Positions 20,200 through 36,303 are shown, counted from the first letter of the stretch. The stretch: DNA of 64,000 bases from a virus (IMGVR_UViG_3300028608_000007:1-64000); one strand, 5' to 3'. Numbers and translations are program-made. The notes: a model not told the origin generated them from the letters alone.

Positions 20200-23184
20200 A
20201 TGGCTAACCTGTCGTTAAGCGTTGCTCCGGGGTACTACCTCGAGGCGCAACATGCGGATTGGGTGCTTAGCTCTGAAGTTGACTTCATTAGCTTTGCGCT
20301 CAATGGCGCACAACCCGCCCTGTCGAAGTACATCGCTTACGACACCCTGACTCCGGCTAACCCCTTCATTGCGGTAACGGAGGACGGGAACGGTCGTGTG
20401 GTGTACGATGGTGGGTTCCCTAAGTTCTACAACTCGTTTGCACCGACAGCGGGTCTTGATCCGCTGTTCAGCTTGGAGTTCCGTGGGACCAAAGACAGTC
20501 CTGGCGCTGATGGTAACGCCTACTACTACGACCTGTTTTCAACTGTTGCGGTAACAATCGCAGCCGGTGACAAATTGGTGTACGACATCTGGTGTAACAG
20601 TCCAGATGCTCGTGTGGGGGTGGACGGCATCACCAACGCTACGATCATCAATGGTCCTCCATTCCTGTACTCGCTACGAGACTGGAAGCAGCAAGGAAGT
20701 GTGCTCAAGGATCAGAACGGAATCTCGATCCACCCAGCGTCAGACCACTCAGCTTATTCAGCGAACAAGTGGTACCACCGGGAGTTCGATCTGACCCAAG
20801 CGGCCGGATACCAGTTCATCAAATGGAGTTTGGCATACGAAGGTGAAACGAACGGGGTGTTCTACACTCGGTTCAAAGAGGTCTACGTCATTGACAAAAA
20901 CGGTAAGGTGAAAGCCACGCTGTTCAAAGACCGGATCACTATCCCTTCGGGCACCCCAAGCTACCCCGGCGCTTCGGGTTACTCGAACATCTCCACTGGC
21001 ATTTACGATCCTCGTAGCAACCTCTCGGCGGCTTTCAAGTATCTGTTCAATGCCATTCGCTGGGTGTCGAAGAAGAGCCTTGAAGAGGCAGGTACCAAGA
21101 AGATCCTGATCTTGGGCGACGCCTCGCTGGCTGGTACTGCCAACTACCGGATCAAAGGTACTGGTAACGGTGATTTCAATACCAGTCTAACTAACCTTTG
21201 TACTGCTGTTGGGTTTACCCCTACATTTAAAGACGTGTCGGACTATAGTGGCGGTTTGCTTAACGCCACGTTGGCCGAGATGAATCAGTACAACTGTGTG
21301 TTACTGATGGGTTCTCAGAGCGGTACGTCGGCACTGATCACCACGTCAATGATCCAAGATATCCAGACATACCGCCAACAAGGTGGTGGGATCATCATGA
21401 TCACCGACCACGGTAACGATATTGCGACCATTGGTAATGCTTATCCTCCTGCGAGTGGTGTAGCGTTCTTCCACTTGGTTAACGCCGTGGCGGTGAACTT
21501 TGGTGCTTGGTTCTCAGGCAACTTTGACCGGACGCCTGTTAACGTTGGGTTCCTTCGCACCAACTATGGTGACCACCCCTTGTACGATGGGATGACCAAT
21601 GCTGAGTCAATCGCTGCGGGCACTTCTGAGTCCAAGGTGATCGTCAGTAACCCACCTCAGTATCGTCCTCCGATTGCGGGGATCGATATCACCCAGCAAG
21701 GTGTGAACACGGTCCGTGTAATGGCGTCGTTGAAAGACGGCACCATGGAAGCGTACAGCTTTGTTTACGTGATCGCCACGGGTCAGTTGATCGTCTTCCG
21801 TGATCCAGAGGGCACTGAGATCAACGCGTTGCCAGCCTCCTTGAGTTCTAAGGTGGACTTCAACGTTGAGTTGATCGGTGCAGGTCTGGGTACGTTGGTG
21901 GGTGATGTTCGTCTCAACGGGAAGACGGTAGCTCAGCTTTCCTTCGACACCACTGACGGTTCTGTGCAGAAGTGGATTGGTGGTGGGTCTAACCAGCTCT
22001 TCGTTAATAAGGGTGATGTCTTCGAGGCTCGGATCACCAGTCCGTTCTCGTACGCGCGTAACCTTCCGGTAAACCGATTGGTACCTAGCCTTGTGGGTCT
22101 GCGTAAACTCCCTGACGTTGTTAAGGAATTGCGTGGCAACGGATTCAGCACCAGTAAACCGAAAGAGACGGTACTCGACGCCGTGAACTACATGACGCGT
22201 GAATTCCCAGCCTTGGGGTACACGCCGAAGGGTGACTACGCTCGGGACATCGCTCAGCTCCAAGGGTTCTGGGGTTCAGAGCCGACTAAGCCGGATCAAG
22301 GTGTTTACATCTATCCGACTTTGACTGCTGCCCAAGAAGCCATGGGGCGGTTGTCTCCACCGACTCCCCAACAGGTCTTCAACACATGGGACCGTTTCAC
22401 CAGTAACGAGTACTTCGTTGGTGGTGTGGGAGCTACTGGGGATGCGGCAGCTTGGCAGTGGAACGACTCCTTGGGTGCTGCGGTACAACCGTTGAACACT
22501 GCGTCGTGGAACGGTTTCATCTCCCCTGACGTGGTGGACAGTTACGAGCTGGACGTGGTGATTAAGTCGGATAACGCCGACGATGACACCAACGGTCTCG
22601 TGTTGGCCTTCAACCGCCAGAACAACATCAACCACCGACTGATCTTGGCGTTGAACCAAGGTGGTAACACACCTGCGGCTTCCCACTCGATCGGCCTTTA
22701 CAGTACGTCCACGCAACATTTGGTCTTGAATGACTTCGCTGGGCGTAAGTCCAACGCGGCGTTCCCGACTGATGGTGGTTGGCGAGGTAAGTTCAGCCGT
22801 GTGAAAGTTATACGGTCAGGCAACTACTTCAAAGTGTTGGCTAGTCAGTGGAACTCGTTAGTCTTGGACCCTGCGTCCTTGATGGAGTTGACACTGGACG
22901 ATTCCGCACTCCAGGCTCAGTTTAAAGGGCCTAAAGCATGGGGCTTCATCAACTACTCCCAGTCTCAGTCGTACTTCACTCTGCGCAGTTACAAAGGCGG
23001 TCCTTTGAAGGACGTCGTCGTGGTGGCAGCTACCGGAGCGGTGTACTTCTACGGTTCCAATGGGTGGGAGTTGATTGCAGGTACTACTGCGAAAGATGTC
23101 TTCGGATACCCTCGTAAGTTGACTAACCCCGAAACTGGTGCGTCGTTCATGGTCAACGCGAACGGCACGATCACAGCACTTTGA
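20200..23184 (+). CDS. Large tail-fibre-associated / receptor-binding protein
   Basis: 994 aa between two fibre genes; beta-rich modules, C-terminal DDDTNGLVLAF lectin-like motif. Confidence 0.65.
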   Translation: MANLSLSVAPGYYLEAQHADWVLSSEVDFISFALNGAQPALSKYIAYDTLTPANPFIAVTEDGNGRVVYDGGFPKFYNSFAPTAGLDPLFSLEFRGTKDSPGADGNAYYYDLFSTVAVTIAAGDKLVYDIWCNSPDARVGVDGITNATIINGPPFLYSLRDWKQQGSVLKDQNGISIHPASDHSAYSANKWYHREFDLTQAAGYQFIKWSLAYEGETNGVFYTRFKEVYVIDKNGKVKATLFKDRITIPSGTPSYPGASGYSNISTGIYDPRSNLSAAFKYLFNAIRWVSKKSLEEAGTKKILILGDASLAGTANYRIKGTGNGDFNTSLTNLCTAVGFTPTFKDVSDYSGGLLNATLAEMNQYNCVLLMGSQSGTSALITTSMIQDIQTYRQQGGGIIMITDHGNDIATIGNAYPPASGVAFFHLVNAVAVNFGAWFSGNFDRTPVNVGFLRTNYGDHPLYDGMTNAESIAAGTSESKVIVSNPPQYRPPIAGIDITQQGVNTVRVMASLKDGTMEAYSFVYVIATGQLIVFRDPEGTEINALPASLSSKVDFNVELIGAGLGTLVGDVRLNGKTVAQLSFDTTDGSVQKWIGGGSNQLFVNKGDVFEARITSPFSYARNLPVNRLVPSLVGLRKLPDVVKELRGNGFSTSKPKETVLDAVNYMTREFPALGYTPKGDYARDIAQLQGFWGSEPTKPDQGVYIYPTLTAAQEAMGRLSPPTPQQVFNTWDRFTSNEYFVGGVGATGDAAAWQWNDSLGAAVQPLNTASWNGFISPDVVDSYELDVVIKSDNADDDTNGLVLAFNRQNNINHRLILALNQGGNTPAASHSIGLYSTSTQHLVLNDFAGRKSNAAFPTDGGWRGKFSRVKVIRSGNYFKVLASQWNSLVLDPASLMELTLDDSALQAQFKGPKAWGFINYSQSQSYFTLRSYKGGPLKDVVVVAATGAVYFYGSNGWELIAGTTAKDVFGYPRKLTNPETGASFMVNANGTITAL

Positions 23185-23199
23185 TAAACAGGAAAGGTT

Positions 23200-24828
23200 A
23201 TGGGCACTATCATTGTTAAGTACCCTGAAGACCCAACGGGGATCAACCCCAACAACCTGGTCATCAACGAGCCTCACGATCTTGGAGCAGGGCGCAATCG
23301 CGCCTTTGTTCCTAACTACGGTTCCTACTTCACGGAATCGATGATCGTTACTGAGGCTGCGACCGGGCGGGTCCTCACCAAGGGTACGCACTACATCGCT
23401 GCACAGTTGCAACAAGAAGCCACTCTGGCGATGGACAAAGAGATTTGTGCCGTCGTTGTCATCACTGACCCGAGTGTACAGGACCAACTGTTGTTCACCT
23501 ACCAAGTTGTTGGTGGTGTGTTCAGCACGTCGGTCTCCGCGTTGCAGAAAATGATCGAAGACCTCGATCTGGACGAGCGGGCTGTTGAGTGGGGCGCCAT
23601 CATTGGTAAGCCTACTGCTTTCCCACCTGCTCCTCACCTCCACGATATCGGCGACCTGTACGGTTTCGAATACCTCGTGGAAGCACTGGATGCGCTGCGT
23701 AACGCCATCTTGATCGGTGACGAAGCTGCGCACGATGAACTGCGACAGTACATCCAGTACGAAGACGGGTTGCTGCGGGCAAGCATTGCTGAGCTGAAAG
23801 GTCAGTTCGATGCTCACGCCCAAGACAAGAACAACCCGCATGGTACTACCAAAGCTCAGGTCGGACTTGGTTCGGTCGAGAACTACGGTATCGCTACCAC
23901 TGCCGAAGCCCAAGCAGGTACTTCCAACGCGAAGTACATGACTCCTCTGCGTACGGCCGAAGCGATTGCTCAGCAAGCGTTGATTCCTTTGAACGCACAC
24001 ATTGCGGACAAGAACAATCCACACCAAACCACTAAAGCCCAAGTTGGCTTGGGTAGTGTGGAGAACTACGCGATTGCCACCACGGCAGAAGCGCAGGCCG
24101 GTACCAGTGACGTGAAGTACATGACGCCTTTGAAAACCAAAGACGCCATTGCCCAACAAGCACTGATCCCCCTGAACAACCACATCGCCGATAAGAATAA
24201 CCCCCACCAGACCACCAAGGCACAGGTTGGGTTAGGTTCCGTTGAGAACTACGGCATTGCGACGACCGCTGAGGCTCAAACGGGTACCAGCGATATCAAG
24301 TACATGACTCCGTTGAAGACCGCACAAGCGATCTCTCAGCAGGCTCTCGTACCGCTGAATGCTCACATCGCTGACAAAGGTAACCCTCACGGTACGACCA
24401 AGGCGCAAGTGGGCTTGTCGGATGTGGACAACTTCGCAACAGCTACTCAGGCTGAGGCTCAGGCTGGTGTGCTGAACACCAAGTTCATGACGCCGCTGCG
24501 AACTGCGCAGGCTATTGCCCAGCAAGTGGGGAACACCCTGACGGCTCACATCAACAACCAGTCGAACCCTCACAACGTGACCAAGTCGCAGATCGGTCTA
24601 AGTCTGATTCCGAACTCGATCACTCGTAGTCGGGCTACCAACTCTGACGGTTCGTTGCTGACGGCTGGCGGTATGTACGATCACGTGAACTCTGCGGACC
24701 ACGATGCTCGTTACGCTCCGAAGAACACGGCAGGCGTTGACTGCTCGGTTCACTGGAACGGTGCAGGTGTGTACGTCTGGGGCGGTGGTGCATGGCGTCA
24801 AGTGTGGCCTGCTCAGTGGGCTGCGTAG
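23200..24828 (+). CDS. Tail fibre protein 2
   Basis: N-terminus paralogous to fibre 1 (YPEDPTG), five NPH motifs, short Trp-rich C-terminus. Confidence 0.85.
   Translation: MGTIIVKYPEDPTGINPNNLVINEPHDLGAGRNRAFVPNYGSYFTESMIVTEAATGRVLTKGTHYIAAQLQQEATLAMDKEICAVVVITDPSVQDQLLFTYQVVGGVFSTSVSALQKMIEDLDLDERAVEWGAIIGKPTAFPPAPHLHDIGDLYGFEYLVEALDALRNAILIGDEAAHDELRQYIQYEDGLLRASIAELKGQFDAHAQDKNNPHGTTKAQVGLGSVENYGIATTAEAQAGTSNAKYMTPLRTAEAIAQQALIPLNAHIADKNNPHQTTKAQVGLGSVENYAIATTAEAQAGTSDVKYMTPLKTKDAIAQQALIPLNNHIADKNNPHQTTKAQVGLGSVENYGIATTAEAQTGTSDIKYMTPLKTAQAISQQALVPLNAHIADKGNPHGTTKAQVGLSDVDNFATATQAEAQAGVLNTKFMTPLRTAQAIAQQVGNTLTAHINNQSNPHNVTKSQIGLSLIPNSITRSRATNSDGSLLTAGGMYDHVNSADHDARYAPKNTAGVDCSVHWNGAGVYVWGGGAWRQVWPAQWAA
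23827..24600 (+). repeat. 61-aa (183-nt) near-identical shaft repeats
   Basis: KNNPH(G/Q)TTKAQVGLGSVENY.IATTAEAQ.GTS..KYMTPL.T unit, about four copies; first two start at 23827 and 24010. Confidence 0.9.
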
Positions 24829-24884: not shown

Positions 24885-25394
24885 ATGGGTAATGTGAGTA
24901 GTGGTTCTTTATTCCAATATATCACAGAGTCTACCCTAAGGGTAGACGACATCCTTAGTAGTCCTTACCCCTTTGAGCAACAGCTTGTAAAGATTCTCAA
25001 CAAGGGCATTGTCATCGACGCTCTAAGTGCTTCGGATGTATTGGAGCACTCTGATAAGGTCATCAAGATTGAAGGAATGGAGAAACTCTGTCCAGTCCTG
25101 TTCAAGGCTTGCAAAGACCTGGCAGAAGTCATGGAACATGATGGGCCTGTAACTTGCCATCTGTTCCTGTCTCCTGTTGGGGGCAAGAGCTTCCCAACAC
25201 ACACTGATCCTGACGACGTGTTTTTGTACATGGTCAGTGGTATGAAACACATGGCGGTCAATGACAACGTTAAACTGCTCACCGCAGGAGACTCGTTGTT
25301 GATCCCTCGGAACACACCCCACAGAGCACACAACCTGAACGCCTCGAAGATGTTGAGCTTTGGGTTGGAACGCTTTATTGTTGAGAAGCTCTGA
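24885..25394 (+). CDS. JmjC/cupin-family hydroxylase
   Basis: HLFLSP.GG.SFPTHTDPDDVF (HxD) ... GDSLLIPRNTPHRA (distal His). Confidence 0.75.
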   Translation: MGNVSSGSLFQYITESTLRVDDILSSPYPFEQQLVKILNKGIVIDALSASDVLEHSDKVIKIEGMEKLCPVLFKACKDLAEVMEHDGPVTCHLFLSPVGGKSFPTHTDPDDVFLYMVSGMKHMAVNDNVKLLTAGDSLLIPRNTPHRAHNLNASKMLSFGLERFIVEKL

Positions 25395-26428
25395 TGACCA
25401 AGACTATCTACGTCAAGACCACTGGCAGTTGCAACTTGAACTGCCAGCATTGTTTCACCGGAGGCCGTAACGGTGACCGGACACAGTTCGATCCCCAGCA
25501 GTACGGGGATTGGATTGAGGACTACATGTCCAAACATCCTCGGGGGACTCAGTATCACCTTGAGTTCCACGGGGGTGAACCTTTCCTTGTGCCGTTAGCC
25601 AAGCTTACAGAGTTGGCTGATCGGTTCTTTGAGCGGGAAGGGGTGTCGATGTGTGCGAACAGTAACCTCACGTTCAAGATCACAGATGACATCCTTGCCT
25701 TTATCCAGAAGTATTTCTACGGCCACATTGGTACGAGTTGGGACCACTGGATTCGCTGGAGTAATCAAAAGCAATTTGATCTCTGGCGCTCAAATCTTTC
25801 TATGCTCCGCGAGCACGGAGTATGTATTTACTTAAAGGTGTCTGTCAGTCGGGAGTTGATCAACACCACGGCTGATTGGTTCTTGGATCAGATCGAAAGC
25901 TTTGGGGTGAGTGAAGTCTCCTTGGAGCGGTTGACCTGTGATGGCAATGCCAAAGAGAATATGGACATCTTCCCAGACAACGAGGCGCAGGACAACTGGT
26001 ACCTCGAGCTGTACAAGCGTTACAAGCAACGCAAGCCCAAAGTCAAGATCCGCACCTTGGACATTCTCGAAGAGAAGCTTAAGTACAACGTGGTGGCTGT
26101 GGATACCAACTGTCGCAACTGTGAACAGAACTTGGTGACCATGAACTCCAACGGGACCTTAGGCGGTTGTCCAAACGTAGCCTCTGCTCGAAAGCACGCA
26201 CGTTTAGAACAGGGGGCTGATGCATTCCTGAACTCCGAAGACCGAGTGTCCGAGATCGCTAAGGAACTGACGTGGGGTGATGGTTGCCTTAATTGTGACG
26301 TCTTCGATTTATGCGGTGGCGACTGTCACCGATTGCCTTGGCAGCAAGGTCGCTGTGGCGGCTTGAAGAATACGCTGAGGTATCTGTCGGGACGTTCTAC
26401 TCAGTCCAATTTGATTATCAAGGTGTGA
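25394..26428 (+). CDS. Radical SAM/SPASM protein 1
   Basis: CNLNCQHC, FHGGEPF, C-terminal CRNC..CP..CLNC..C.GDC..C auxiliary-cluster cysteines. Confidence 0.92.
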   Translation: MTKTIYVKTTGSCNLNCQHCFTGGRNGDRTQFDPQQYGDWIEDYMSKHPRGTQYHLEFHGGEPFLVPLAKLTELADRFFEREGVSMCANSNLTFKITDDILAFIQKYFYGHIGTSWDHWIRWSNQKQFDLWRSNLSMLREHGVCIYLKVSVSRELINTTADWFLDQIESFGVSEVSLERLTCDGNAKENMDIFPDNEAQDNWYLELYKRYKQRKPKVKIRTLDILEEKLKYNVVAVDTNCRNCEQNLVTMNSNGTLGGCPNVASARKHARLEQGADAFLNSEDRVSEIAKELTWGDGCLNCDVFDLCGGDCHRLPWQQGRCGGLKNTLRYLSGRSTQSNLIIKV

Positions 26429-26429
26429 A

Positions 26430-26984
26430 ATGACGGACGTAACAAGACAGAGCGTCGCTGACTTATTCAACGGCGTCGTGCGTGCCAACGCCAACGCTGG
26501 TATCTCGTGGGGCAACAACAACTATCCTGCTGGTGCTCTGGCAGGTTGGTTCGGTGGCTCCACTGGTGGTTTGGCCTTAGCAATGGGTGCTGGTGACATT
26601 GCTGCGGGTAACCTCTCCGCTTCTAACGTAGCTGCTGTGCTGCGTAACTTCACTAACCAGTGGTCTGCTATCCGCCGTACGCGCATCGTGATCTACTACG
26701 CGTGGAACAGTGGTGAGGACTTTGTCAACTCTGGTGTGAACGTGCAGTATGATGGTACAGCCATTGCCTATACTGCGTACCCGGCTGGAGCGCCTGGTAA
26801 CAACGCAGCATTGCCTGGTCTGGCTCAAGGGGCTAACGTCTCTTACAGCAACATGCAGGCGTGCGTGAATAACCTGTGGGGTCAGTACTACGAGATGTGC
26901 CGTAACACCACCCTGACTCTCACCAACACTGTCTGCCACACAAGCTGCCACGACAACTGCCACTGTGCACGCGGTCGTCGTTAA
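26430..26984 (+). CDS. Gly/Ala/Asn-rich protein with C-terminal CHxxCHxxCHC motif (candidate radical SAM substrate)
   Basis: 184 aa; all six Cys in last ~40 aa; ends CHTSCHDNCHCARGRR. Confidence 0.75.
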   Translation: MTDVTRQSVADLFNGVVRANANAGISWGNNNYPAGALAGWFGGSTGGLALAMGAGDIAAGNLSASNVAAVLRNFTNQWSAIRRTRIVIYYAWNSGEDFVNSGVNVQYDGTAIAYTAYPAGAPGNNAALPGLAQGANVSYSNMQACVNNLWGQYYEMCRNTTLTLTNTVCHTSCHDNCHCARGRR

Positions 26985-26995
26985 GGAGAACCCCA

Positions 26996-27739
26996 GTGGA
27001 TAAACCCACCGTCATTGTTGAAACCGTAGCACCCATTCCGCTGGACGTCCTCAAGCGTAAGTTCACCGAAGATATCGAGTTCCATATCGACTACGAGAAC
27101 TCCAGGCTCAAGGGTAAGGTGTTGATCACCTACCTGTCGAACTTGAAGATCAAGTGTCGGTTGATCTTGAATGATCGCGAGACTACGTTGCTGTTGATCC
27201 AAGAGTACCTGAACATTCCGGTACTGGTCGACATGCCTGACCTCGCAGACCACGCCATGAACATGCTGTTGGATTACACCGGCAAGCCAAGTACGGTAGT
27301 GGGTGATCTGGTTGAGTTCTACACGTTCAACCGCGAGATCCTGAACACGTGGGTGCGTCGTCTGTACTCGATGCCGCTGTTTGCCATGTACTGCATGGGC
27401 GACCAGTATCACGAGTACGTCGAAGGTTTCCCGAAAGATGAAGAAGATAACATCGCTGGTATCAACTTCGTCAACCTGCTGCGTCATCCCTTGTTTGCAG
27501 TAATGCTCGAAGGGGTAGAGGAAGACCAGTACACTTGGAACCCTGTGTTCTTCAAGGAGTACATCTTCCAGGGCAACAACCTGTTCCACTATTTCGCCGA
27601 TCGCAACAACCCGCTGTTCATGGGTGTGCTGGCGCTCCAAGACCCTGAGTCGTTCAAGGCTTATAGCACCGCTCTCGCAAACGAGGTGCGTGACTCCCAA
27701 GCCCTTCTGAAAGGTATCGGTTATGTACCATCTCTTTAA
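26996..27739 (+). CDS. Hypothetical protein in radical SAM cluster
   Basis: GTG start with GGAG RBS, 247 aa, overlaps next gene. Confidence 0.7.
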   Translation: MDKPTVIVETVAPIPLDVLKRKFTEDIEFHIDYENSRLKGKVLITYLSNLKIKCRLILNDRETTLLLIQEYLNIPVLVDMPDLADHAMNMLLDYTGKPSTVVGDLVEFYTFNREILNTWVRRLYSMPLFAMYCMGDQYHEYVEGFPKDEEDNIAGINFVNLLRHPLFAVMLEGVEEDQYTWNPVFFKEYIFQGNNLFHYFADRNNPLFMGVLALQDPESFKAYSTALANEVRDSQALLKGIGYVPSL

Positions 27740-28778
27740 CTCGGTGTACGTGGACTCTGAACGCCGTGTCATGCGTGACGTGAATAACATCACCATCTCG
27801 CCTCACATCGGTTACGAGTACTTCCCTGGCCCGAACGAGAAAGCCGGTCGTCAGATTGGTTACGCTCGTACACTCGATGAAGTCGAACCAGCGGTGCTGA
27901 TGGGTTGGCTCAAAGAAGCCATGCTGTCGGAAGAGAAGACCTTCATCTTCTGTGATGGTCCGACCTACCTGCGGCTGTACACCATGCTCGTCAAGTGTCT
28001 GGTGCCTCAGATCGACCTCGAAACTTTCCGCTGGGTTTGGCTGTGCAAGAAGGCTACCTTCAACACGTCCCTGACCAACTGGAAGCAGCCAGGTAACAAC
28101 GTCCTTGAAGGCGTGGTGATCAACAACGAGGTCATCCTCGATCTGGCTGAGTTCGAAGACCCGCTGCAAGGCCCGTTCAACGAACTGATGGCTGGCGATG
28201 ATGAAATCGTATCGCTGGAATGGCACATCTTCCGTCTGGCGGCGGTGGGCTACACTGGCATCGTACCAAAGCGTCTGAAGAACATCCTGCGTCGTATCGC
28301 TCTGGCGAACACTCACGATGCACTGGACGTTTGGGGTCGTGTGATCACTGATCCGTCGAACTGGGAATACGCTGGCGCTGATCTGGACACTCTGCTGAAT
28401 GCCCCATCGGTATTCGAAGGTGCCTTGAACATGCACTACACCAACAATCCGATCTTCTTGAAGCCTGGGCTGTTCGTGAAGTTCCCACAAGACCAGTGGC
28501 TGTGCAACCTGCTCGAAGAACTGCAACCGTTGCTCGAACGCATCGGTGAAGGTCCAACGGCTAAGCGGACGACCAAGATCCTGATGTTCTTGCAAGACCG
28601 CAATCCGCTGAATGATCCTGGTGCCTGCTTGCAGCGCTGCCGTGACATCTTCACTGGACCTGACCGCCTGGCCATGCCAAACCGGGACTCGAGCAAGTAC
28701 GACGAGAACCTGATCCGTTACATCCTAAGTCGTGACCAGAAAGATCTGGCGCGCATGTTTGAAGGGGCAACTTGGTGA
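27723..28778 (+). CDS. Hypothetical protein in radical SAM cluster
   Basis: 351 aa, overlaps both neighbours. Confidence 0.7.
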   Translation: MYHLFNSVYVDSERRVMRDVNNITISPHIGYEYFPGPNEKAGRQIGYARTLDEVEPAVLMGWLKEAMLSEEKTFIFCDGPTYLRLYTMLVKCLVPQIDLETFRWVWLCKKATFNTSLTNWKQPGNNVLEGVVINNEVILDLAEFEDPLQGPFNELMAGDDEIVSLEWHIFRLAAVGYTGIVPKRLKNILRRIALANTHDALDVWGRVITDPSNWEYAGADLDTLLNAPSVFEGALNMHYTNNPIFLKPGLFVKFPQDQWLCNLLEELQPLLERIGEGPTAKRTTKILMFLQDRNPLNDPGACLQRCRDIFTGPDRLAMPNRDSSKYDENLIRYILSRDQKDLARMFEGATW

Positions 28779-29785
28779 ATCTAATCCCGGTGGTAGACGT
28801 ACTCGCTGAGAAGAAAGGGCCGACGAAAGAAGCGCACTTGATCCTCTTCGAGAAATGTAATCTGCGTTGCTCGTTCTGCCACCAGGACCACGATTCTACC
28901 GTTGGTCTTGATGCTGAGGAGATCATGCGTAAGGGGATCAAGCTCGTTGAGCAATCGGACCTCGAAGCACCGATCGTAATCAACATCACTGGCGGCGAGT
29001 TGTTCACGGACGACATCGAAGACTGGATGTTTGGGTACTACCATGCGCTGGGTGAGTACCTGTTGAATAACTTCAAGCGTGTCAAGTTGGTCTACGGGAC
29101 TAACTTGGTGTACGAAAACGTGTGGCGCGTTGAACGCATGATGATCATGCTGAACAACCTGTGCGACAAGGACAAGCAGGAAGTTGTCTTAGCGACGTCA
29201 TACGACCCCGCAGGCCGGTTTAACCCAGCCCAGCGGGAATTGTTCTTCAAGAACTTGGATCGTGTTGGCATGTGGGTCGACACGGTAAACGTAGTGATCA
29301 CGAGACAGAACATCGACGTCTTCCTGAACGACCGCGAGGGCGTTGAGGTGAAAGATCTGGCGTACGACTACGATCTGTATTTTGATCATTACATACCAAG
29401 CGAAAGATATGAAGAGCACCAACCTACCGAGTCACAGATCCGTCAACTGTATTTGAAGTTGGCTGAGCGGTATCCTAACTCGTATCCCATAAAAGCCTGG
29501 AAAGAACAGCGCTTTAATGACACGACCTGCCGTTCCACCAAGATCATCAACAAAGATGGTGTGGTGACTACGTGTTGGTCGGAAGCGGGTAAGGATGCGG
29601 TCCTCGACGAAGGGCAAGGGTTGGCTGCGAAACATGCGGCTGAAGAACGATTCATCGAACACTACGGGTGTCTGTCGTGTGAGTATTACCAACGCTGCGG
29701 TTTGCGTTGCTTCCTCCACCACAGCTTTATCGAAGGCTCTTCCAAAGAGTGCGAGATCAAGCTCCTGTTCGACGAAATCTTGTAG
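28772..29785 (+). CDS. Radical SAM protein 2 (with C-terminal Cys cluster)
   Basis: CNLRCSFC, TGGELF, C-terminal CLSCEYYQRCGLRC..C. Confidence 0.92.
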   Translation: MVNLIPVVDVLAEKKGPTKEAHLILFEKCNLRCSFCHQDHDSTVGLDAEEIMRKGIKLVEQSDLEAPIVINITGGELFTDDIEDWMFGYYHALGEYLLNNFKRVKLVYGTNLVYENVWRVERMMIMLNNLCDKDKQEVVLATSYDPAGRFNPAQRELFFKNLDRVGMWVDTVNVVITRQNIDVFLNDREGVEVKDLAYDYDLYFDHYIPSERYEEHQPTESQIRQLYLKLAERYPNSYPIKAWKEQRFNDTTCRSTKIINKDGVVTTCWSEAGKDAVLDEGQGLAAKHAAEERFIEHYGCLSCEYYQRCGLRCFLHHSFIEGSSKECEIKLLFDEIL

Positions 29786-29790
29786 CCCAG

Positions 29791-29822
29791 GGCCGGTGGT
29801 AAAAGCCACCGGCTTTGTGCCG
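29791..29822 (+). terminator. Internal hairpin + TTTGTGCCG (variant terminator-like element)
   Basis: GGCCGGTGGT-AAAA-GCCACCGGCT stem in the only sizeable gap inside the cluster. Confidence 0.55.
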
Positions 29823-29839
29823 TCCTTAAGGGGAAACCT

Positions 29840-30931
29840 GTGAACCTGATTATTAAGCCGACTGTCAACTGTAACTTCAAGTGTACGTTCTGCTCGAGCA
29901 CACACTTGTCAGAAGAGGCTAAGGACATCGTCGAGTTGGAAGACATTGAACGCTTCCTCGTACGCTACCCTGAAACCCAAACCATCATTGTTAACGGTGG
30001 CGACCCTCTGATGATGCCCCCTAAGTACTACTGGGACATGATCGCAATCCTCGACCGTCTGGAGATGGATAACTGTACGATCTCGTTCACCACTAACCTC
30101 TGGGCGTTCCACAAGAAGCCCGAGCTGTGGACTGAACTGTTCCGCCACGAACGTATCGGCGTAACCACCTCGTTCCAATACGGTGACAAACGTCTCAAGG
30201 GAGACCGAACCCCGTTCACCGAGAAAGAGTTCCTTGAGATCTCTGACCAGTTCTTGGAGCTGGTAGGTTATCGCCCTGACTTCATTGCGGTGATTGACCA
30301 AGACAACGTTGACTCCGTCATGAACACCGTGAACCTTGCTAAGCTCCTAGGGATCGAAGCGAAGATCAACTACGTGTCTGCCTCAGGACCTGAGGTGAAC
30401 AACCGTGGTGTGATCATGGGGAGCATCAACAACTTCTACACCCAAGCTGACATGTACGAACAGTATGTGGCGATCTATGATGCAGGTTTAGGGGAATGGG
30501 AGTACAACACCAAACAGATGGCACGCCGTTTGAAACACGGTAACACCACGTGTCCTCTGTCTCGTAACTGCGACTCTGGAATCCGTGCACTCCAACCGGG
30601 TCGTAACTACTACTCGTGCGGTAGCTTCGGCGATGATGGCGAATACCCTATCTCGTTTGAAGCCGAAATGCAGGGTCAGTTCTTTACCCCGCTGCAAGAA
30701 GCGTTTGAAATCGACACGATGAAGAACGCGTGTTACGAGTGCCCGATGTTCAGCATTTGTAATGGTTGCCGCAAGACTATCGCTGACACCAAACGGTTTG
30801 GGTTGGTTGAACACCATTGCAAGAAGATGAAGTCCCTCGCTCCACGTATCATCGAGATCAACGGAATGGCTGGGTTGATTGAACCCACCCCGTACGTTGA
30901 TGAATCCGTCCAGATTATCGCAAGAGGTTAA
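29840..30931 (+). CDS. Radical SAM/SPASM protein 3 (anSME-like)
   Basis: IIKPTVNCNFKCTFC, NGGDPL, CPLSRNC..C..CYECPMFSICNGC. Confidence 0.92.
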   Translation: MNLIIKPTVNCNFKCTFCSSTHLSEEAKDIVELEDIERFLVRYPETQTIIVNGGDPLMMPPKYYWDMIAILDRLEMDNCTISFTTNLWAFHKKPELWTELFRHERIGVTTSFQYGDKRLKGDRTPFTEKEFLEISDQFLELVGYRPDFIAVIDQDNVDSVMNTVNLAKLLGIEAKINYVSASGPEVNNRGVIMGSINNFYTQADMYEQYVAIYDAGLGEWEYNTKQMARRLKHGNTTCPLSRNCDSGIRALQPGRNYYSCGSFGDDGEYPISFEAEMQGQFFTPLQEAFEIDTMKNACYECPMFSICNGCRKTIADTKRFGLVEHHCKKMKSLAPRIIEINGMAGLIEPTPYVDESVQIIARG

Positions 30932-30932
30932 C

Positions 30933-31349
30933 ATGACTGTAGTAGTGAATGAAAACGTAACACTGATCAGTGGACCACTCGACAGTAGCGGTGGCGGTAC
31001 AGATTACCACTGCTGTCACCTCGATGGCGAACCACTGGTTGATCAGGTAGAACAGTTCAACGGCAAGAACATCACTGTGCGTTACTGGGTTAGCAGTACC
31101 CCACTGACCAGCGTGGAAGAAGCCGACGAACAAACCCTGAAACAGGTTATGGGTTTCCTCGACGCCGATATCAGTCACAGCTACTCCGACGTCACTGGGT
31201 ATCTCTGGACCGACGAACACTTGAAGGTCGGTGGCCACAACGTCCTGGAGGAAATCTGGGAGCTGTGTAACAACGGTCGTTGGGTTGACGGCAAGTACGT
31301 AGACATCTACCTCCTGATGGAAATCACGGTCCATGAAGAGCCCAATTAA
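30933..31349 (+). CDS. Acidic hypothetical protein in radical SAM cluster
   Basis: ATG at 30933 after GAGG gives 138 aa; overlaps next gene. Confidence 0.65.
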   Translation: MTVVVNENVTLISGPLDSSGGGTDYHCCHLDGEPLVDQVEQFNGKNITVRYWVSSTPLTSVEEADEQTLKQVMGFLDADISHSYSDVTGYLWTDEHLKVGGHNVLEEIWELCNNGRWVDGKYVDIYLLMEITVHEEPN

Positions 31350-32292
31350 CCTCAGTGTTAACCTCACCTACTACTGCAACTTTAAGTGTGGGTTCTGTTA
31401 CCTCACGCCAGAGCAGTTGAGAGACCGCCAACGCCTTCCGTTAGACCTACTCGAGCAAAGACTCGATGAAGTCATGGCGCAGTACGAGATCCACCACGTT
31501 GACCTTTACGGCGGTGAGGTCATGGTGCTGCCGAAGGAATACTTGTTCGAGGTTCGTGACATCCTCCACAGTCGTGGGATTGATGACATCGTACTGGTAA
31601 CCAACGGTTCCATCATGAACGAAGTCACCGCATGTGAAGACTTCGATTTAACGGTCTCCTACGACCTCTCTGCACGTGAGAAGAGCGATCAGGTACTGTC
31701 CAACCTCTTTATGCTCGATCGGCCTTATACGCTGCTTACGCTGGCTTCCAGAGCGTTCTTGGATACCGTTTCGGTAGACGACTATGTGAACGAGCTGAAT
31801 ATGCTCAATCGCATGAAGTGTGCTGAGATAAAACCGTACTCCACCAACCAAGCTAACCAACACCGGGTCTCGTACAAAGAGTATGAAGACTTCGTGTGGG
31901 CTGTGATCACTCACCCTAACCGTCAGTTCTATTTTGAGAACCGTACACAGGTGAAGGAAGCGGTTGAAGGTGTGCGTAATGCTTACAGTGACGATCACTT
32001 GTACATCACCCCTGAGGGTGAGTTTGCAGTGCTGGAGTTCGATCACAAAGACCATGAGTTCTTCTTGCGCATGGATTCGTTACATGACTACCGTAACTGG
32101 TGTCAGGTTGAGCGATTCCGCGTAGAAGGCAATCTGTTCTGCGGCGCGTGTCCTTACAAAGGAAACTGTCTGTCGGAACACTTACGCGATGTGAAGTCCT
32201 TGGACAACTCCTGTAACGGGTTCCGAGGACTCTTAGACAGGTGGGCTGAACATGCAAGTACAACACCGACAGCGCCTGGAGATCACCCTTGA
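31333..32292 (+). CDS. Radical SAM protein 4
   Basis: CNFKCGFC, YGGEV, C-terminal CGACPYKGNC..C. Confidence 0.92.
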   Translation: MKSPINLSVNLTYYCNFKCGFCYLTPEQLRDRQRLPLDLLEQRLDEVMAQYEIHHVDLYGGEVMVLPKEYLFEVRDILHSRGIDDIVLVTNGSIMNEVTACEDFDLTVSYDLSAREKSDQVLSNLFMLDRPYTLLTLASRAFLDTVSVDDYVNELNMLNRMKCAEIKPYSTNQANQHRVSYKEYEDFVWAVITHPNRQFYFENRTQVKEAVEGVRNAYSDDHLYITPEGEFAVLEFDHKDHEFFLRMDSLHDYRNWCQVERFRVEGNLFCGACPYKGNCLSEHLRDVKSLDNSCNGFRGLLDRWAEHASTTPTAPGDHP

Positions 32293-33268
32293 CATCTTTC
32301 GAGGGTGTGGTCACTCCTGTGCAGGCTGCATGATTGACAAACAACTAGGGGGTGAGGTTTCAGACATCCCTGAGTTGCTGCTGTTGATCCAAGAGATGGA
32401 AGCTGTGGGTTACGTACCCTTTGACTTAGGTGTCGGACCTACAGACTACATGACCTCGAACAACGTACAAGACGTGATGGGCAACGAGACCTTCCAAGAG
32501 ATGGCTCAGTTGTTCCATCAGGTGACCTTCAACGCTGCGTTCTTGGAAAAGGATCTGGACAAGTACTCCGAGATGTGCCAAGACATTGATCTGGCGTGTC
32601 CCGGTAAGCCTATCCGGTTCCTCATTCCAGCAGCCCCCACCTTCTTCAAGAACGACAAGTTTGGCAACATGATTGAAGCCAAGCTTAATCACTGTAAAGA
32701 AGCTTTCCAGTCAGCCTTCTTGAATGAGGCAGGCTTTGTCGTAACGTGTAACCATGAGACGATGGATGAGAACTTCGACCAGTTGATTCGACGCGGGATG
32801 GATGTTGAATTCCCAGTGGACAAAGACGACATCCTCAACATTCCGTATGGTCGCTCCAAGAACCTGGACCTAATGGTGTCTCAACGGGTCTTACGTGTCT
32901 CCCACGCCATCAGTGAGTTCTATGCAGGGCTTTCTGGTGAGGACGAGCGTCGTCGTAACCCTGATTTGCACTACGACACAGGGACGATGGTTAACTTGTT
33001 GTACACAGGTGGGAAGCTGTATTGGGTTCCCTTCCTTAAAGACGACTGTCCGTTCATTCACGACGAGTTTGTGATCCCAAGGCCCTGGACTATGTCTAAC
33101 CTCTTGCGCGTGCGTAACGAGGCTATGGAGCGTTCTGTAGAGTACCTCAAAGATACCAAGTGTCTTGAGTGTGTACACTTCGCTAGCTGCATGGAGAAGG
33201 GCATCAGCACCATCATGCAGAAGCTGTCGATTCGTGATTGCTTGGTGGGCTTAGATCATGTTTCCTGA
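32252..33268 (+). CDS. Divergent radical SAM-like protein 5
   Basis: CGHSCAGC (CxxxCxxC) near N-terminus, C-terminal CLECVHFASC..C. Confidence 0.75.
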   Translation: MQVQHRQRLEITLDIFRGCGHSCAGCMIDKQLGGEVSDIPELLLLIQEMEAVGYVPFDLGVGPTDYMTSNNVQDVMGNETFQEMAQLFHQVTFNAAFLEKDLDKYSEMCQDIDLACPGKPIRFLIPAAPTFFKNDKFGNMIEAKLNHCKEAFQSAFLNEAGFVVTCNHETMDENFDQLIRRGMDVEFPVDKDDILNIPYGRSKNLDLMVSQRVLRVSHAISEFYAGLSGEDERRRNPDLHYDTGTMVNLLYTGGKLYWVPFLKDDCPFIHDEFVIPRPWTMSNLLRVRNEAMERSVEYLKDTKCLECVHFASCMEKGISTIMQKLSIRDCLVGLDHVS

Positions 33269-34295
33269 GCTGATCGGCATGTCCTTAAACCTGAACCTTG
33301 AGATCCTCACCGGGTGTGGGTTCAGTTGTCCTGGCTGTACTGTGGAGAAGAACTTTGCACCGTTCGAGTTACCAGCCGCCGATACACAAGCGCTCGAAGC
33401 TTTCGTACTCGACCTCCGGGCGCAACAGTGGAGGCTCCTCGAGTTCAAAGTCGGGCCCACTGATATTTGTAGTTCTGATAACGGCTTTGCTGCTCTGGGT
33501 CACCCATTAGTCAAAACCTTGGCTCAACATTACAAAGCGTTGAACATCAACCTTGCGATGTTGAGTACTCGAGGCTTTGAAGAGTTAGCGCCGTTGCTCG
33601 ATGCGTTGATGCCCGGTAAGAAGCTCTCTGTGACGGTTCCAATGACGTTGAAGAACATTGGTAACCCAAAGTACCGGGCTGTGTTGAAAGAGCATGTAAC
33701 GTACTTTAAGAGCCTTCTGAAAGAGGTGGACTTTAACCGGGTGTACGCAGGGTTCAACGTGGTCGAGGAAAACCTCACCCACTTGGATCTTGAACACTAC
33801 GAGTTAGCCCACACACTGGACCTAGGTAACGTAGGGATCGTGGTGGAGTTCCCGTTTGCTCACTCACGCCAAGGGTTCAACAACCTCTTGAACGTCGAGA
33901 AGTTCAAACGTGATCTGGCGGTGTACTCTGAGTTCGCTAAAGCGCGAGTCAACACTCAGATGTTCCGTCCTTTGCAACCTGCGATCTTGGAAGGTTTTGA
34001 ATTCACGTACCGAGGCGGTAGTTTGTACACCACTCCGGTACTGATCGAAAACTTCCCAATCTTCCATCCTGACTTTGAGTTACCCAGACCATGGACCTCC
34101 GAGTCTGTATTAGCTTACAAACAGGAGAGATACTACGATAACCTGATCGAGTATGCCGAGCACCCCGAGTGTGGGAATTGCTGTTTCCTCGATCATTGTG
34201 CACGCGGTGACGTCCATCGCATCATGAAACTGATTGGGAAAGACACATGTCTGACAAACACCCGCAATCGGAGCGACCTGTTAATCCCGGAGTAG
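33258..34295 (+). CDS. Divergent radical SAM-like protein 6 (paralog of protein 5)
   Basis: CGFSCPGC, VGPTD, C-terminal CGNCCFLDHC..C. Confidence 0.75.
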   Translation: MFPELIGMSLNLNLEILTGCGFSCPGCTVEKNFAPFELPAADTQALEAFVLDLRAQQWRLLEFKVGPTDICSSDNGFAALGHPLVKTLAQHYKALNINLAMLSTRGFEELAPLLDALMPGKKLSVTVPMTLKNIGNPKYRAVLKEHVTYFKSLLKEVDFNRVYAGFNVVEENLTHLDLEHYELAHTLDLGNVGIVVEFPFAHSRQGFNNLLNVEKFKRDLAVYSEFAKARVNTQMFRPLQPAILEGFEFTYRGGSLYTTPVLIENFPIFHPDFELPRPWTSESVLAYKQERYYDNLIEYAEHPECGNCCFLDHCARGDVHRIMKLIGKDTCLTNTRNRSDLLIPE

Positions 34296-34741
34296 AGGGT
34301 AACTTCCCCATCATCTTGGACTATATCAGGTTCCCAGAAAACCTTCCTGACCTAGCTCTCTGTCAAACCAACAAAGAGTTTATCACGGACCCTGAGATCA
34401 ACGACTACGTCACCACCCATCTCTTGTCTCAAGTGCGCGAGAGGGTAAAGGTGGACGAAGGTTACGAGCTACATGCTTGCGCCAATCACGTTCATATCGG
34501 CGACCAAGGGATCAACATCCACGATCATCAACCTCACGCTCTGACGTCTGTCCTCTTCTTGACGCAGTCTGATGGCATGCTGGTCTTGCATGAAGATCCC
34601 GTCACTCCTGGTCAAGCTATCAAGCCTAAACCGGGACGCTTTGTAATCATGAAGGGAACCACGCTCCATCAAGTATTCCCTTCTCCCATGCCTGAACTTC
34701 GAATTACTTTGGTGTCCAACTATGAATGTCGCCGTCCATAA
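34247..34741 (+). CDS. Putative 2OG-Fe(II) oxygenase
   Basis: IHDH...SVLFL...LHQV...RITLVSN (HxH..H..R) double-stranded beta-helix pattern. Confidence 0.65.
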   Translation: MSDKHPQSERPVNPGVEGNFPIILDYIRFPENLPDLALCQTNKEFITDPEINDYVTTHLLSQVRERVKVDEGYELHACANHVHIGDQGINIHDHQPHALTSVLFLTQSDGMLVLHEDPVTPGQAIKPKPGRFVIMKGTTLHQVFPSPMPELRITLVSNYECRRP

Positions 34742-35159
34742 GCAGTATCAAGAGTTGTACGCCTCGGTTGTCCAAGAACACTCTGACGACTTCTCGAAGA
34801 TGTTGTTTGTTGAAGACGGAGAGTTGGTGGAGAACGCCAAGCAGTACTTCCTCAAGGCTGAGTTCCCGTTGATCTATCCAGCCAAGTCGATGGCAGTAGC
34901 AGTGATCTACGCTCTGTTGCTGGAAGAGACCTACGCGATCAATCCGTTTGATTCGTTGAAGGACCCTGACTTGTTCTTAGGACAAGACCCCTACTTCGAA
35001 CCGTATGACAAACATCCGAATGAGTACGACCAGTTGCTCGAGTGGGTACTCAGCCATGACAACTGGAAGGAGCTAGGTTGGGCTCCGAAGACCTGTGAGT
35101 ACTTCCGTTTGGAGTGCACCGCAGAAGGCATTCAAGAAGTGATGGAGAACCTCGGATGA
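34722..35159 (+). CDS. Hypothetical protein in radical SAM cluster
   Basis: 145 aa, overlaps both neighbours. Confidence 0.65.
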   Translation: MNVAVHKQYQELYASVVQEHSDDFSKMLFVEDGELVENAKQYFLKAEFPLIYPAKSMAVAVIYALLLEETYAINPFDSLKDPDLFLGQDPYFEPYDKHPNEYDQLLEWVLSHDNWKELGWAPKTCEYFRLECTAEGIQEVMENLG

Positions 35160-35716
35160 ACATTATCCAACCTTGGCAGACCCCGCTTGGTCATTCGAAC
35201 TTTGCTCAGTGTTTGGACCTCACCGCACTCAAAGATGAGATCGGTGCGCTGGCACTGATGTCAGACCAAGAAGACGGTGGACAGCGTTACGTCAATGACT
35301 ACTCGACGTTCCCCAACATCGTTCACTTGATCCGTGACATCATCGACCATGAGGTCAAAGAGTACGTCCAGAAAATGTGGGACTACAACCTCGGTGACTT
35401 CCGTCGGGAAACCAACGCCAAGTGGATTCCACCGGGTGAGGGTCTGTACCCGCACTACCACCCTGGTTCACAGATGTCGGCGATCTTCTACCCGGAAGAC
35501 TCTCCATCAGGGTTGGCGATGTTTGATCCACGAGGTAATGCGTGTCGTGGTTATCCCAAACCGATCCGCAATCGCTTCATGGCTCCGCACCTGATCTCTC
35601 CTGCGGCGGGTGATCTGTGGATCTTCCCTTCCTTCGTACAACACAGCGTCTCCTACGTGAAAGAGGACACGCGGCTTTCTATGTTGTGTGAATACTACTT
35701 CTCTGACGAGCGCTAA
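35156..35716 (+). CDS. 2OG-Fe(II) oxygenase (TIGR02466/PF13759-like)
   Basis: ATGA-coupled start; PHYHP..SAIFYP..FDPRG..GDLWIFPSFVQHSV..RLS. Confidence 0.8.
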   Translation: MNIIQPWQTPLGHSNFAQCLDLTALKDEIGALALMSDQEDGGQRYVNDYSTFPNIVHLIRDIIDHEVKEYVQKMWDYNLGDFRRETNAKWIPPGEGLYPHYHPGSQMSAIFYPEDSPSGLAMFDPRGNACRGYPKPIRNRFMAPHLISPAAGDLWIFPSFVQHSVSYVKEDTRLSMLCEYYFSDER

Positions 35717-35718
35717 CC

Positions 35719-36273
35719 ATGGAACTGATTCAACCCTGGAACACGTCTATCTTCAAAGGTAACGTGTCCCACATGTGCAACGTGGAAGACATCGCTAACG
35801 AGATCCTGACTCTCCACAGTCTGTCTCCACAAGAGTCCACCACCCCTCACAAAGTCACTCCCGAAGAGTTCCCAGCTCTGTGCGACTTCCGCGATCGCGT
35901 CGTGACCAATCTGGTTAAGGAGTTTGCATGGCAGACCATGCACTTCGACTTGACCGAGTTCACTGTCGATACGTTCGGTAAGTGGTTTGCTAAAGGTTCT
36001 GACCTGGCCCCACACGTTCACGGTAGCACTGGTTTCACCACCATCTTCTACCCGGACGATTACGAATCGGGGATGATGATCTTCGACCCTCGTGGGAATG
36101 CTTCGCGTGGCTATCCTCGCAAGATTCGCGACGAACACTTCGCTCCGTACACCGTGTACCCGAAGAAGGGTGACCTGTACATCCTGCCTTCGTTCCTGCA
36201 ACACTACGTGCCGACCGTGAAAGACGATCTGCGCCTGTCGCTGATCAACGACTACATGTTCAAGTCGATCTAG
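35719..36273 (+). CDS. 2OG-Fe(II) oxygenase (paralog of previous gene)
   Basis: PHVH..TTIFYP..FDPRG..GDLYILPSFLQHYV..RLS. Confidence 0.8.
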   Translation: MELIQPWNTSIFKGNVSHMCNVEDIANEILTLHSLSPQESTTPHKVTPEEFPALCDFRDRVVTNLVKEFAWQTMHFDLTEFTVDTFGKWFAKGSDLAPHVHGSTGFTTIFYPDDYESGMMIFDPRGNASRGYPRKIRDEHFAPYTVYPKKGDLYILPSFLQHYVPTVKDDLRLSLINDYMFKSI

Positions 36274-36275
36274 CT

Positions 36276-36303
36276 AGAGGGCCCTCCGGGGCCCTTTATG
36301 CCG
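36276..36303 (+). terminator. Hairpin + TTTATGCCG ending the radical SAM cluster
   Basis: AGGGCCC-TCCG-GGGCCCT stem directly after last oxygenase. Confidence 0.7.

What the first reader, a model, noticed from the sequence alone, without database searches (positions are those of the whole stretch)
24885..36273. Phage-encoded multi-radical-SAM / oxygenase modification system next to the tail fibres
Seen directly: 15 co-oriented, mostly overlapping genes. They encode six CxxxCxxC proteins with C-terminal Cys clusters (25394, 28772, 29840, 31333, 32252, 33258), one JmjC/cupin, three 2OG-Fe(II)-oxygenase-like proteins, four unknowns and one Cys/His-tailed small protein. No terminator of the recurrent type separates the locus from the fibre operon, and a terminator closes it at 36276. 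Established: SPASM/twitch radical SAM enzymes install thioether or C-C crosslinks and other changes on peptides and proteins, while JmjC and 2OG enzymes hydroxylate residues. Inference: this is a dedicated RiPP-like pathway that hypermodifies a phage protein, plausibly a tail-tip adhesin, or makes a modified peptide effector. Multi-radical-SAM loci are annotated in some jumbo phages, but I know of no functional characterisation.
Basis: partly seen in the sequence, partly recalled or inferred. Interest (0 to 1): 0.95.

Follow-up and report, generated by a model that had tools for sequence, protein, structure and literature searches.

The report
Radical-SAM kit finishing phage fibre tip
This giant phage carries, right behind its tail-fibre genes, a 15-gene kit of iron-sulfur and iron-oxygenase enzymes that very probably chemically modifies the Cys-His-rich end of a small particle protein, and the same undescribed kit sits beside adhesive-fibre genes in unrelated phages and in predatory bacteria.

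Summary
Observation confirmed, with one correction: a hairpin of the phage's recurrent terminator type lies inside the locus (29792). The phiKZ-like phage encodes a JmjC-type cupin, four core radical SAM (rSAM) enzymes (R1-R4), two divergent ones, three 2OG oxygenases and three conserved unknowns around a folded 184-aa protein ending (C-H-x-S/N/A)x3-RGRR. Core genes co-occur in 54-58 of 58 phage loci and in Bdellovibrionota. The kit adjoins three unrelated fibre types; in Bdellovibrionota an S74 fibre gene lies within 10 kb in 11 of 15 genomes. The Atu_ph07 homologue (31.9 kDa) is in purified virions and peaks in the top gel band; its enzymes were not detected. One homologue is fused to an S74 trimer chaperone directly behind the tail, others to a Gly-rich adhesin-type domain. 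Variants lacking RGRR keep R1/R3 but lack R2/R4/U145 nearby, suggesting split labour. Best reading (0.65): enzymatic maturation of a fibre-tip virion protein; the chemistry is unproven. No enzyme passes HXS or triceptide family cut-offs; no paper found. This scan noted the same kit earlier in other genomes.

The parts
17678..20191 (+). phiKZ-type repeat tail fibre / virion structural protein 1 (837 aa); context
   Evidence: PHROG 2163/13857
20200..23184 (+). 994-aa virion structural protein, variable insertion between the fibres; context
   Evidence: PHROG 11065; in 3 related loci
23200..24828 (+). short repeat tail fibre 2 (542 aa) ending in a W-x-x-x-W-P-x-x-W motif; always directly upstream of the kit in phiKZ-like loci; candidate docking partner
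24885..25394 (+). JmjC-type cupin with conserved H106-D108...H146 and K121
   Evidence: PF07883 43.4 bits, PF08007 36.2 bits; conservation; 57/58 loci
25394..26428 (+). R1, rSAM/SPASM enzyme, core; always next to the substrate gene in phages
   Evidence: TIGR04085 SPASM 28.7 vs cut-off 27; best full-length matches anSME, AmcB, PapB, YhhB far below cut-off; 58/58 loci
26430..26984 (+). CH protein, 184 aa: folded body plus (C-H-x-S/N/A)x3-RGRR tail at 26934-26981; putative substrate and virion fibre-tip protein
   Evidence: Atu_ph07 gp170 in virions; S74 and Gly-rich fusions
26996..27739 (+). U247, core unknown (PHROG 20767), well folded, no solved-structure match; candidate scaffold or recognition factor
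   Evidence: (58/58)
27723..28778 (+). U351, divergent conserved unknown, no conserved catalytic Cys
   Evidence: (49/58)
28772..29785 (+). R2, rSAM enzyme, core; missing near RGRR-less variants
29792..29822 (+). internal terminator-like hairpin of the recurrent type
29840..30931 (+). R3, rSAM/SPASM-type enzyme, the most conserved gene (about 47-56% identity to most Bdellovibrionota copies)
30933..31349 (+). 138-aa ORF, not conserved in the kit, probable insert
31333..32292 (+). R4, rSAM enzyme with one C-terminal Cys cluster, core; missing near RGRR-less variants
32252..33268 (+). R5, divergent rSAM-like protein, accessory, paralogue of R6
   Evidence: (R5/6 in 25/58)
33258..34295 (+). R6, divergent rSAM-like protein, accessory
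34247..34741 (+). 2OG-Fe(II) oxygenase-like protein 1
   Evidence: PF13640 E 1.1e-4
34722..35159 (+). U145, core unknown; missing near RGRR-less variants
   Evidence: (54/58)
35156..35716 (+). 2OG-Fe(II) oxygenase-like protein 2 (TIGR02466-like)
   Evidence: PF13759 40 bits
35719..36273 (+). 2OG-Fe(II) oxygenase-like protein 3, paralogue of 2
   Evidence: PF13759 27.5 bits
36278..36305 (+). closing terminator-like hairpin

Best explanation
The locus is a dedicated post-translational maturation kit for one small virion protein. The CH protein is made in the infected cell as a folded body with a flexible 16-residue tail (shown: conserved motif, AlphaFold model). R1 and R3, helped by U247 and U351, act on the three C-H-x-S/N/A repeats; R2, R4 and U145 (in phages also the JmjC cupin) act on the terminal RGRR (inferred from gene loss in RGRR-less variants). 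The most likely chemistry on the repeats is radical cross-linking, His-to-C-beta of the residue two positions on as in His-type triceptides, and/or Cys thioethers; the oxygenases add hydroxyls (inferred). The matured protein oligomerises, probably as a trimer, and is mounted at the end of a tail fibre with the modified tail as the outermost tip, where it serves in binding the target cell surface, possibly through a bound metal (inferred). Predatory Bdellovibrionota would use the same kit for a pilin-anchored S74 fibre.
For: Co-conservation in fixed order cupin-R1-CH-U247-(U351)-R2-R3-R4-U145 across 58 loci: R1, R3, U247 58/58; R2, R4, cupin 57/58; U145 54/58, including phiKZ-like pPa_SNUABM_DT01 and RSL2 and T4-like Atu_ph07 and Phosso. 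Full tail pattern in 158/181 homologues whose bodies fall to about 25-35% identity. Third repeat position is S/N/A/D/Q and never Gly in 711 positions, while the second is Gly 114 times, as a C-beta cross-link would require (PMC11499958). Atu_ph07 gp170, same position, tail and fold (Foldseek E 5.6e-6), is in virions with 8 peptides and 35% coverage, most abundant in band 1 although most 29-32 kDa proteins peak in bands 7-8; gp164-169, 171 and 172 are not listed (PMC6102473 Table S5). A fibre gene lies directly upstream in 58/78 phage loci, of two unrelated types. In Bdellovibrionota the gene order is shuffled, yet an S74 fibre gene is within 10 kb of R3 in 11/15 genomes that have only 0-4 S74 matches in 1.7-4.6 Mb. 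P0179 carries an S74 chaperone about 10 residues behind the tail in place of RGRR, inside the same kit; P0132 and P0182-P0184 carry a Gly_rich_2 domain. RGRR-less variants (L077, L133/134, L136, L137) keep R1, R3, U247, U351 and lack R2, R4, U145 in the DNA held; L077 is the single exception in the 58-locus count.
Against: No modification has been observed in any homologue. Virion evidence rests on one distant homologue in a PEG-purified preparation, and the listed loading buffer has no reductant, so the high band could be disulfides or aggregation; gp321 and gp616 behave similarly. 20/78 phage loci have no recognised fibre gene upstream. Most Bdellovibrionota CH proteins show no signal peptide, so how they would reach a surface fibre is unexplained. 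The RGRR co-loss rests on about two lineages and partial contigs. The Gly count is partly biased by the search patterns. Loci are not phylogenetically independent.
Confidence: 0.65

Rival explanations
1. Classical RiPP: the body is a long leader or carrier, and the modified tail is cut off and acts as a free peptide (metal chelator, anti-host or anti-defence effector).
For: Tail conserved while the body varies; basic RGRR end; SPASM-type enzymes; repeat number varies (P0038); presence in bacteria without a signal peptide.
Against: No conserved protease or transporter in the kit; body folds confidently, pLDDT 87, and is found in virions; S74 and Gly-rich fusions and triple fibre linkage make no sense for a disposable leader.
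Confidence: 0.13
2. The Cys/His tail is mainly a metal or Fe-S/heme-like cofactor site on a virion protein; the enzymes build or load a cofactor, or make a small molecule that is then attached, rather than cross-linking residues.
For: Three Cys plus three His per chain, nine each in a trimer; each repeat reads as a CX3CH motif; His-metal sites are known in fibre tips (own knowledge); 10 enzymes seem many for 16 residues.
Against: Conserved S/N/A and RGRR are not needed for ligation; no cofactor-pathway family passes its cut-off; no ligase or transferase in the core.
Confidence: 0.12
3. The enzymes modify the neighbouring fibre (or a host protein), and the CH protein is only an accessory or adaptor.
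For: Constant fibre adjacency; shared W-rich fibre end in phiKZ-like loci.
Against: The adjacent fibres are of three unrelated kinds with no shared motif, while the CH tail is shared; enzyme content tracks the CH tail, not the fibre.
Confidence: 0.07
4. DNA or nucleotide hypermodification, or an auxiliary metabolic pathway.
For: Phage rSAM and 2OG enzymes do modify DNA bases (PMC8989533 appeared; own knowledge).
Against: QueE, MoaA, NrdG and viperin models score far below cut-off; oxygenases hit PF13759/PF13640, with no TET/JBP hit; no nucleotide enzymes in the core; the kit occurs in bacterial chromosomes beside fibres; obligatory CH gene.
Confidence: 0.03

Closest known systems
HXS antiphage system (HxsA matured by rSAM HxsB/HxsC with HxsD; PMC13128918)
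   Same: Several rSAM enzymes plus a small partner act on His-x-Ser repeats of a folded protein that works at the cell envelope.
   Different: Here the repeats are Cys-spaced, C-terminal and end in RGRR; no peptidoglycan-binding domain or leader; enzymes are not HxsB/C; oxygenases are added; encoded by the attacker next to fibres, not by the defender.
His-type triceptides (HaaB, YhhB, HtkB three-residue cyclophane synthases; PMC11499958)
   Same: His-x-X3 motifs with a C-beta-bearing X3; R1 scores weakly against AmcB, YhhB and FxsB over most of its length.
   Different: Scores are 33-45 bits against cut-offs of 370-445; substrate is a 184-aa folded virion-type protein; four to six rSAMs instead of one; no protease or exporter.
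Protein-modifying SPASM enzymes (anaerobic sulfatase maturase TIGR03942; ranthipeptide maturase PapB)
   Same: SPASM-type auxiliary Cys clusters; Cys- and Ser-containing target motif in a folded protein.
   Different: 47 and 45 bits against 349 and 340; substrate is not an enzyme; tandem terminal motif.
Fibre-tip adhesins and S74-chaperoned trimeric fibres (T-even gp38 type, own knowledge; Bdellovibrio MAT fibres, PMC10769870)
   Same: Small gene in the slot after the fibre; Gly-rich and S74 fusions; linkage to S74 fibres in predators.
   Different: No solved structure matches the CH body; no enzymatic maturation kit is described for those adhesins.
Ralstonia phage RP12/RP31 ORF70-76 cluster (annotated only, PMC5468394)
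   Same: Same slot behind the same short fibre: small His-containing protein, one unknown, four rSAMs and an iron enzyme (MgoB-like).
   Different: Not orthologous (best 32 bits against our family profiles); no CH tail; uncharacterised.

Membership tests
Radical SAM superfamily | CxxxCxxC motif and PF04055 domain | tested here: met
   R3 45.3 and R4 36.1 bits above cut-off 29.5; R1 borderline; R2 weak, but all four hit PHROG 1802
Radical SAM superfamily (R5, R6) | PF04055 domain and aromatic residue in CxxxCx-phi-C | tested here: inconclusive
   Three Cys conserved in 39/40 members, Gly in place of the aromatic, no Pfam or NCBIfam hit; GenBank annotates the DT01 orthologues as radical SAM
SPASM-domain maturases | TIGR04085 SPASM domain | tested here: met
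   R1 28.7 vs 27; R2 16.4, below; 7-8 conserved C-terminal Cys in R1-R3
HXS system | HxsB and HxsC orthologues (TIGR03978, TIGR03977) | tested here: not met
   26.3 vs 370 and 18.6 vs 267.9 bits
HXS system | HxsA-type substrate with HxS repeats and peptidoglycan-binding domain | tested here: not met
   H-x-S repeats present, but no NCBIfam hit and no PG-binding domain in the CH protein
Triceptides | 3-CyFE family enzyme (AmcB, YhhB, FxsB, GrrM/OscB models) | tested here: not met
   At most 45.3 bits vs 310-445
Triceptides | Aromatic-x-X3 motifs with C-beta-bearing X3 | tested here: met
   X3 = S, N, A, D, Q; Gly 0 of 711
Triceptides | Aromatic-to-C-beta cross-link in the product | not testable with these tools
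   Needs MS/MS and NMR
Ranthipeptides / sactipeptides | PapB, AlbA or CcpM-type maturase | tested here: not met
   PapB 44.9 vs 340; AlbA 18.2 vs 850
Phage DNA-modification pathways (7-deazaguanine, TET/JBP) | QueE and partner genes, or TET/JBP oxygenase | tested here: not met
   QueE 20.4 vs 260; oxygenases hit PF13759/PF13640 only
Virion fibre-associated protein | Present in purified particles | tested here: inconclusive
   Met for homologue Atu_ph07 gp170; no data for this phage
gp38-type fibre-tip adhesin | Known adhesin fold | tested here: inconclusive
   No solved chain at Z 5 or more; Gly_rich_2 only in fused homologues

The most novel reading that the evidence does not exclude
Phages and predatory bacteria share a portable RiPP-like kit that builds a multiply cross-linked, hydroxylated and possibly metal-binding tip on a trimeric attack-fibre protein, creating a receptor-binding surface that is not encoded by sequence alone; a second, non-orthologous kit (RP12/RP31) fills the same genetic slot, so enzymatic finishing of fibre tips may be a general strategy.
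Probability: 0.4. Interest if true: 0.95.

Novelty: categorically new. Interest (0 to 1): 0.86.

Why it matters
Virion proteins are assumed to be plain polypeptides, at most cleaved, disulfide-linked or glycosylated. A dedicated multi-rSAM maturation of a particle protein would be a new layer of host recognition, invisible to sequence-based host-range prediction and to standard proteomics. It offers four to six uncharacterised rSAM families with one obvious 16-residue target, and cultured carriers exist (RSL2, RSF1, FLC6, S13, pPa_SNUABM_DT01, Atu_ph07), so the test is direct. The Bdellovibrionota copies tie it to prey recognition. 'Categorically new' refers to the system and its role; the chemistry probably resembles known rSAM peptide cross-linking, and if the virion role fails it would drop to a new RiPP variant.

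Tried and rejected
Fold searches of the CH model and the U247 model found no clear solved or Atlas match; this does not prove new folds, and U247 shows no RRE/PqqD-like hit. Atlas feature searches for U351 and U247 gave only unnamed leads under 0.9. U351 as a sulfurtransferase: three rhodanese chains at E 0.06-0.5, but the match is to the inactive domain and the Cys is not conserved; rejected. U247 and U351 are not related. The Glyco_hydro_45 hit on the CH protein is below cut-off and not supported by the fold. No PDB sequence relative for R1, R3 or U247, and nothing significant for U145. No link between tail variant and number of R5/6 or oxygenases beyond lineage. RP31 ORF70 is not detectably homologous to the CH protein and is not in the shallow RP31 virion list, which also lacks the fibres ORF68/69; uninformative. 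The W-rich fibre end is not exclusive to this kit (RP31 has it).
Full report
Setting. The window is bases 1-64000 of a 180,543-base linear virus record, about 65% complete. It is phiKZ-like: internal head protein PF12699 at 37030, SbcC at 12720 with best matches in LucasX, Noxifer, RP12/31 and RSL2, and phiKZ-type repeat fibres at 17678 and 23200. The closest cultured carrier of the locus is Pseudomonas phage pPa_SNUABM_DT01 (R1 70%, R3 69%). The host is not known.

Observation. All 15 ORFs exist as described, tightly coupled. R1-R4 are radical SAM proteins of PHROG 1802; R1 passes the SPASM domain cut-off; R5 and R6 are divergent paralogues without the aromatic motif residue. No named family is reached: best scores are under 50 bits against cut-offs of several hundred. 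The cupin keeps an HxD...H triad; oxygenases 2 and 3 are paralogues of the PF13759 type. All Pfam rSAM matches of the genome lie in this locus.

Co-conservation. In 80 IMG/VR loci plus four cultured phages, the order cupin-R1-CH-U247-(U351)-R2-R3-R4-U145 is nearly fixed. Among 58 loci with enough flank: R1, R3, U247 58; R2, R4, cupin 57; U145 54; an oxygenase 52; U351 49; R5/6 25. Among 50,697 GenBank phage records only 15 carry R3 or U145, against 274 with this fibre family, so the kit is optional and patchy. It spans phiKZ-like and T4-like phages. R3 is also in 19 of 401 Bdellovibrionota genomes, with R1, R2, R4, U247, U145 and the CH gene in shuffled order.

The substrate. A profile search finds 536 clusters at 50% identity. 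Of 181 proteins retrieved, 158 end in the full pattern of three C-H-x-x units plus R-x-R-R. His and Cys are almost absent from the body (0.8% and 0.5%). The third position of each unit is S 536, N 113, A 57, D 4, Q 1 and never Gly, whereas the second is Gly 114 times (search patterns bias this in part). His-type triceptide enzymes link His to the C-beta of exactly that position (PMC11499958), and the HXS system modifies an H-x-S motif with two rSAMs (PMC13128918). AlphaFold gives a confident three-helix, long-hairpin body and a low-confidence tail, with no solved match and viral matches including Atu_ph07 gp170.

Link to the virion and to fibres. (a) Atu_ph07 gp170 holds the CH position and tail and is in the virion proteome: 8 peptides, 35% coverage, most abundant in band 1 although it is 31.9 kDa and most proteins of that size peak in bands 7-8; the flanking enzymes are not listed (PMC6102473 Table S5). 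The listed buffer has no reductant and the preparation was PEG-purified, so this shows an SDS- and heat-stable oligomer or aggregate, not its bond. (b) A fibre gene lies directly upstream in 58 of 78 phage loci: 23 phiKZ-type and 35 of a T4-like type with a Peptidase_G2-like chaperone end. (c) In Bdellovibrionota an S74-chaperone gene lies within 10 kb of R3 in 11 of 15 genomes (27 kb in a twelfth), although each has 0-4 S74 matches in 1.7-4.6 Mb; by my estimate chance is about 2% per genome, but the genomes are related. The linked ones are the short (330-440 aa) class, with a prepilin-like start where examined. S74 fibres are prey-recognition adhesins in B. bacteriovorus (PMC10769870). (d) P0179 is a CH domain whose tail is followed after about 10 residues by an S74 chaperone (E 1.5e-11), in the same gene slot. 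S74 domains fold trimers and cut themselves off (established knowledge), which would leave the Cys-His tail at the distal tip of a trimer. P0132 and P0182-P0184 join the CH domain to a Gly_rich_2 domain. (e) In FLC9, which lacks the kit, the fibre's end resembles an S74 chaperone and a small protein follows; in RP12/RP31 the same slot holds a different small His protein with four non-orthologous rSAMs.

Division of labour. The one locus of 58 that lacks R2, R4 and the cupin (L077) is also the one whose CH protein lacks RGRR. Three further RGRR-less cases agree: L133/134 and L136 (same lineage) and L137 (another, partial contig) keep R1, U247, U351 and R3 and lack R2, R4 and U145 in the DNA held; a search of the 99-kb L077 record finds no R4 orthologue and no U145 (34% complete). 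This suggests R1/R3 serve the repeats and R2/R4/U145 the Arg-rich end, and it ties the enzymes to this tail rather than to DNA or metabolism. It rests on about two independent losses. The cupin is often absent in Bdellovibrionota that keep RGRR, so its link is looser.

Mechanism. Shown: gene content, conservation, fusions, linkage, one homologue in virions. Inferred: that the tail is modified (about 0.85), that the product stays on a fibre-associated virion protein (overall 0.65), that the chemistry includes His-to-C-beta or thioether cross-links (about 0.5), and that the tip binds the target cell (about 0.45). Open: how bacterial CH proteins without a signal peptide are exported, and why ten enzymes are kept for 16 residues.

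Novelty. No component passes the cut-off of a described family, and I found no paper that goes beyond annotation. It works like HXS or triceptide maturation but is a member of neither. This scan's earlier unchecked notes describe the same kit in other genomes; they agree but are not independent evidence. In the summaries shown to me I did not see the S74 fusion, the RGRR-linked enzyme loss, the S74 linkage count or the RP31 analogue.

Noticed in passing
L128:5173-12743 (Ralstonia phage RP31 ORF70-76, AP017925.1): A second, non-orthologous kit in the same slot behind the same short fibre: 125-aa protein with two HxH motifs, a 295-aa unknown, four rSAMs and an MgoB-like enzyme. Probably an analogous fibre-tip maturation system.
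   Followed up: partly
window 29792-29822: Internal terminator-like hairpin between R2 and R3; related loci often have insertions here.
   Followed up: partly
window 30933-31349: 138-aa ORF absent from related kits; only GenBank phage match is an Alicyclobacillus phage protein (35%).
   Followed up: partly
window 20200-23184: 994-aa structural protein inserted between the two fibres in only three related loci; candidate second receptor-binding protein.
   Followed up: no
window about 24780-24828: The short fibre ends in a W-rich motif shared by the upstream fibre of all phiKZ-like kit loci and by RP31; candidate docking site for the small downstream protein.
   Followed up: partly
window 3670, 16299, 36278, 38608, 38627: Recurrent GC hairpins followed by TTTATGC(C) rather than a long T-run; missed by the generic terminator scan where it was run.
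   Followed up: no
L089:359-4101 and L110-L122: Bdellovibrionota class of short S74 fibre proteins, prepilin-like where examined, that travels with the kit, distinct from the longer unlinked S74 fibres.
   Followed up: partly
L112:9398-10622; L114:14440-15628: Two tandem CH genes in some Bdellovibrionota loci.
   Followed up: no
P0038, P0178: CH homologues with expanded repeat arrays or a Pro-rich insert before the terminal Arg motif.
   Followed up: no
L110, L115, L117, L131, L137: A larger rSAM (520-640 aa; B12-binding domain in L131 and L137) accompanies some kits, suggesting optional methylation.
   Followed up: no
BFVD A0A8S5USJ8, A0A8S5USJ7, A0A8S5USV2: Three 500-660 aa proteins of Myoviridae sp. 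ctijX18 share the CH body fold (TM about 0.5).
   Followed up: no
P0001: A 90% identical CH protein is filed under Streptomyces sp. CHB9.2 on a 241-kb contig, probably a co-assembled jumbo phage.
   Followed up: no
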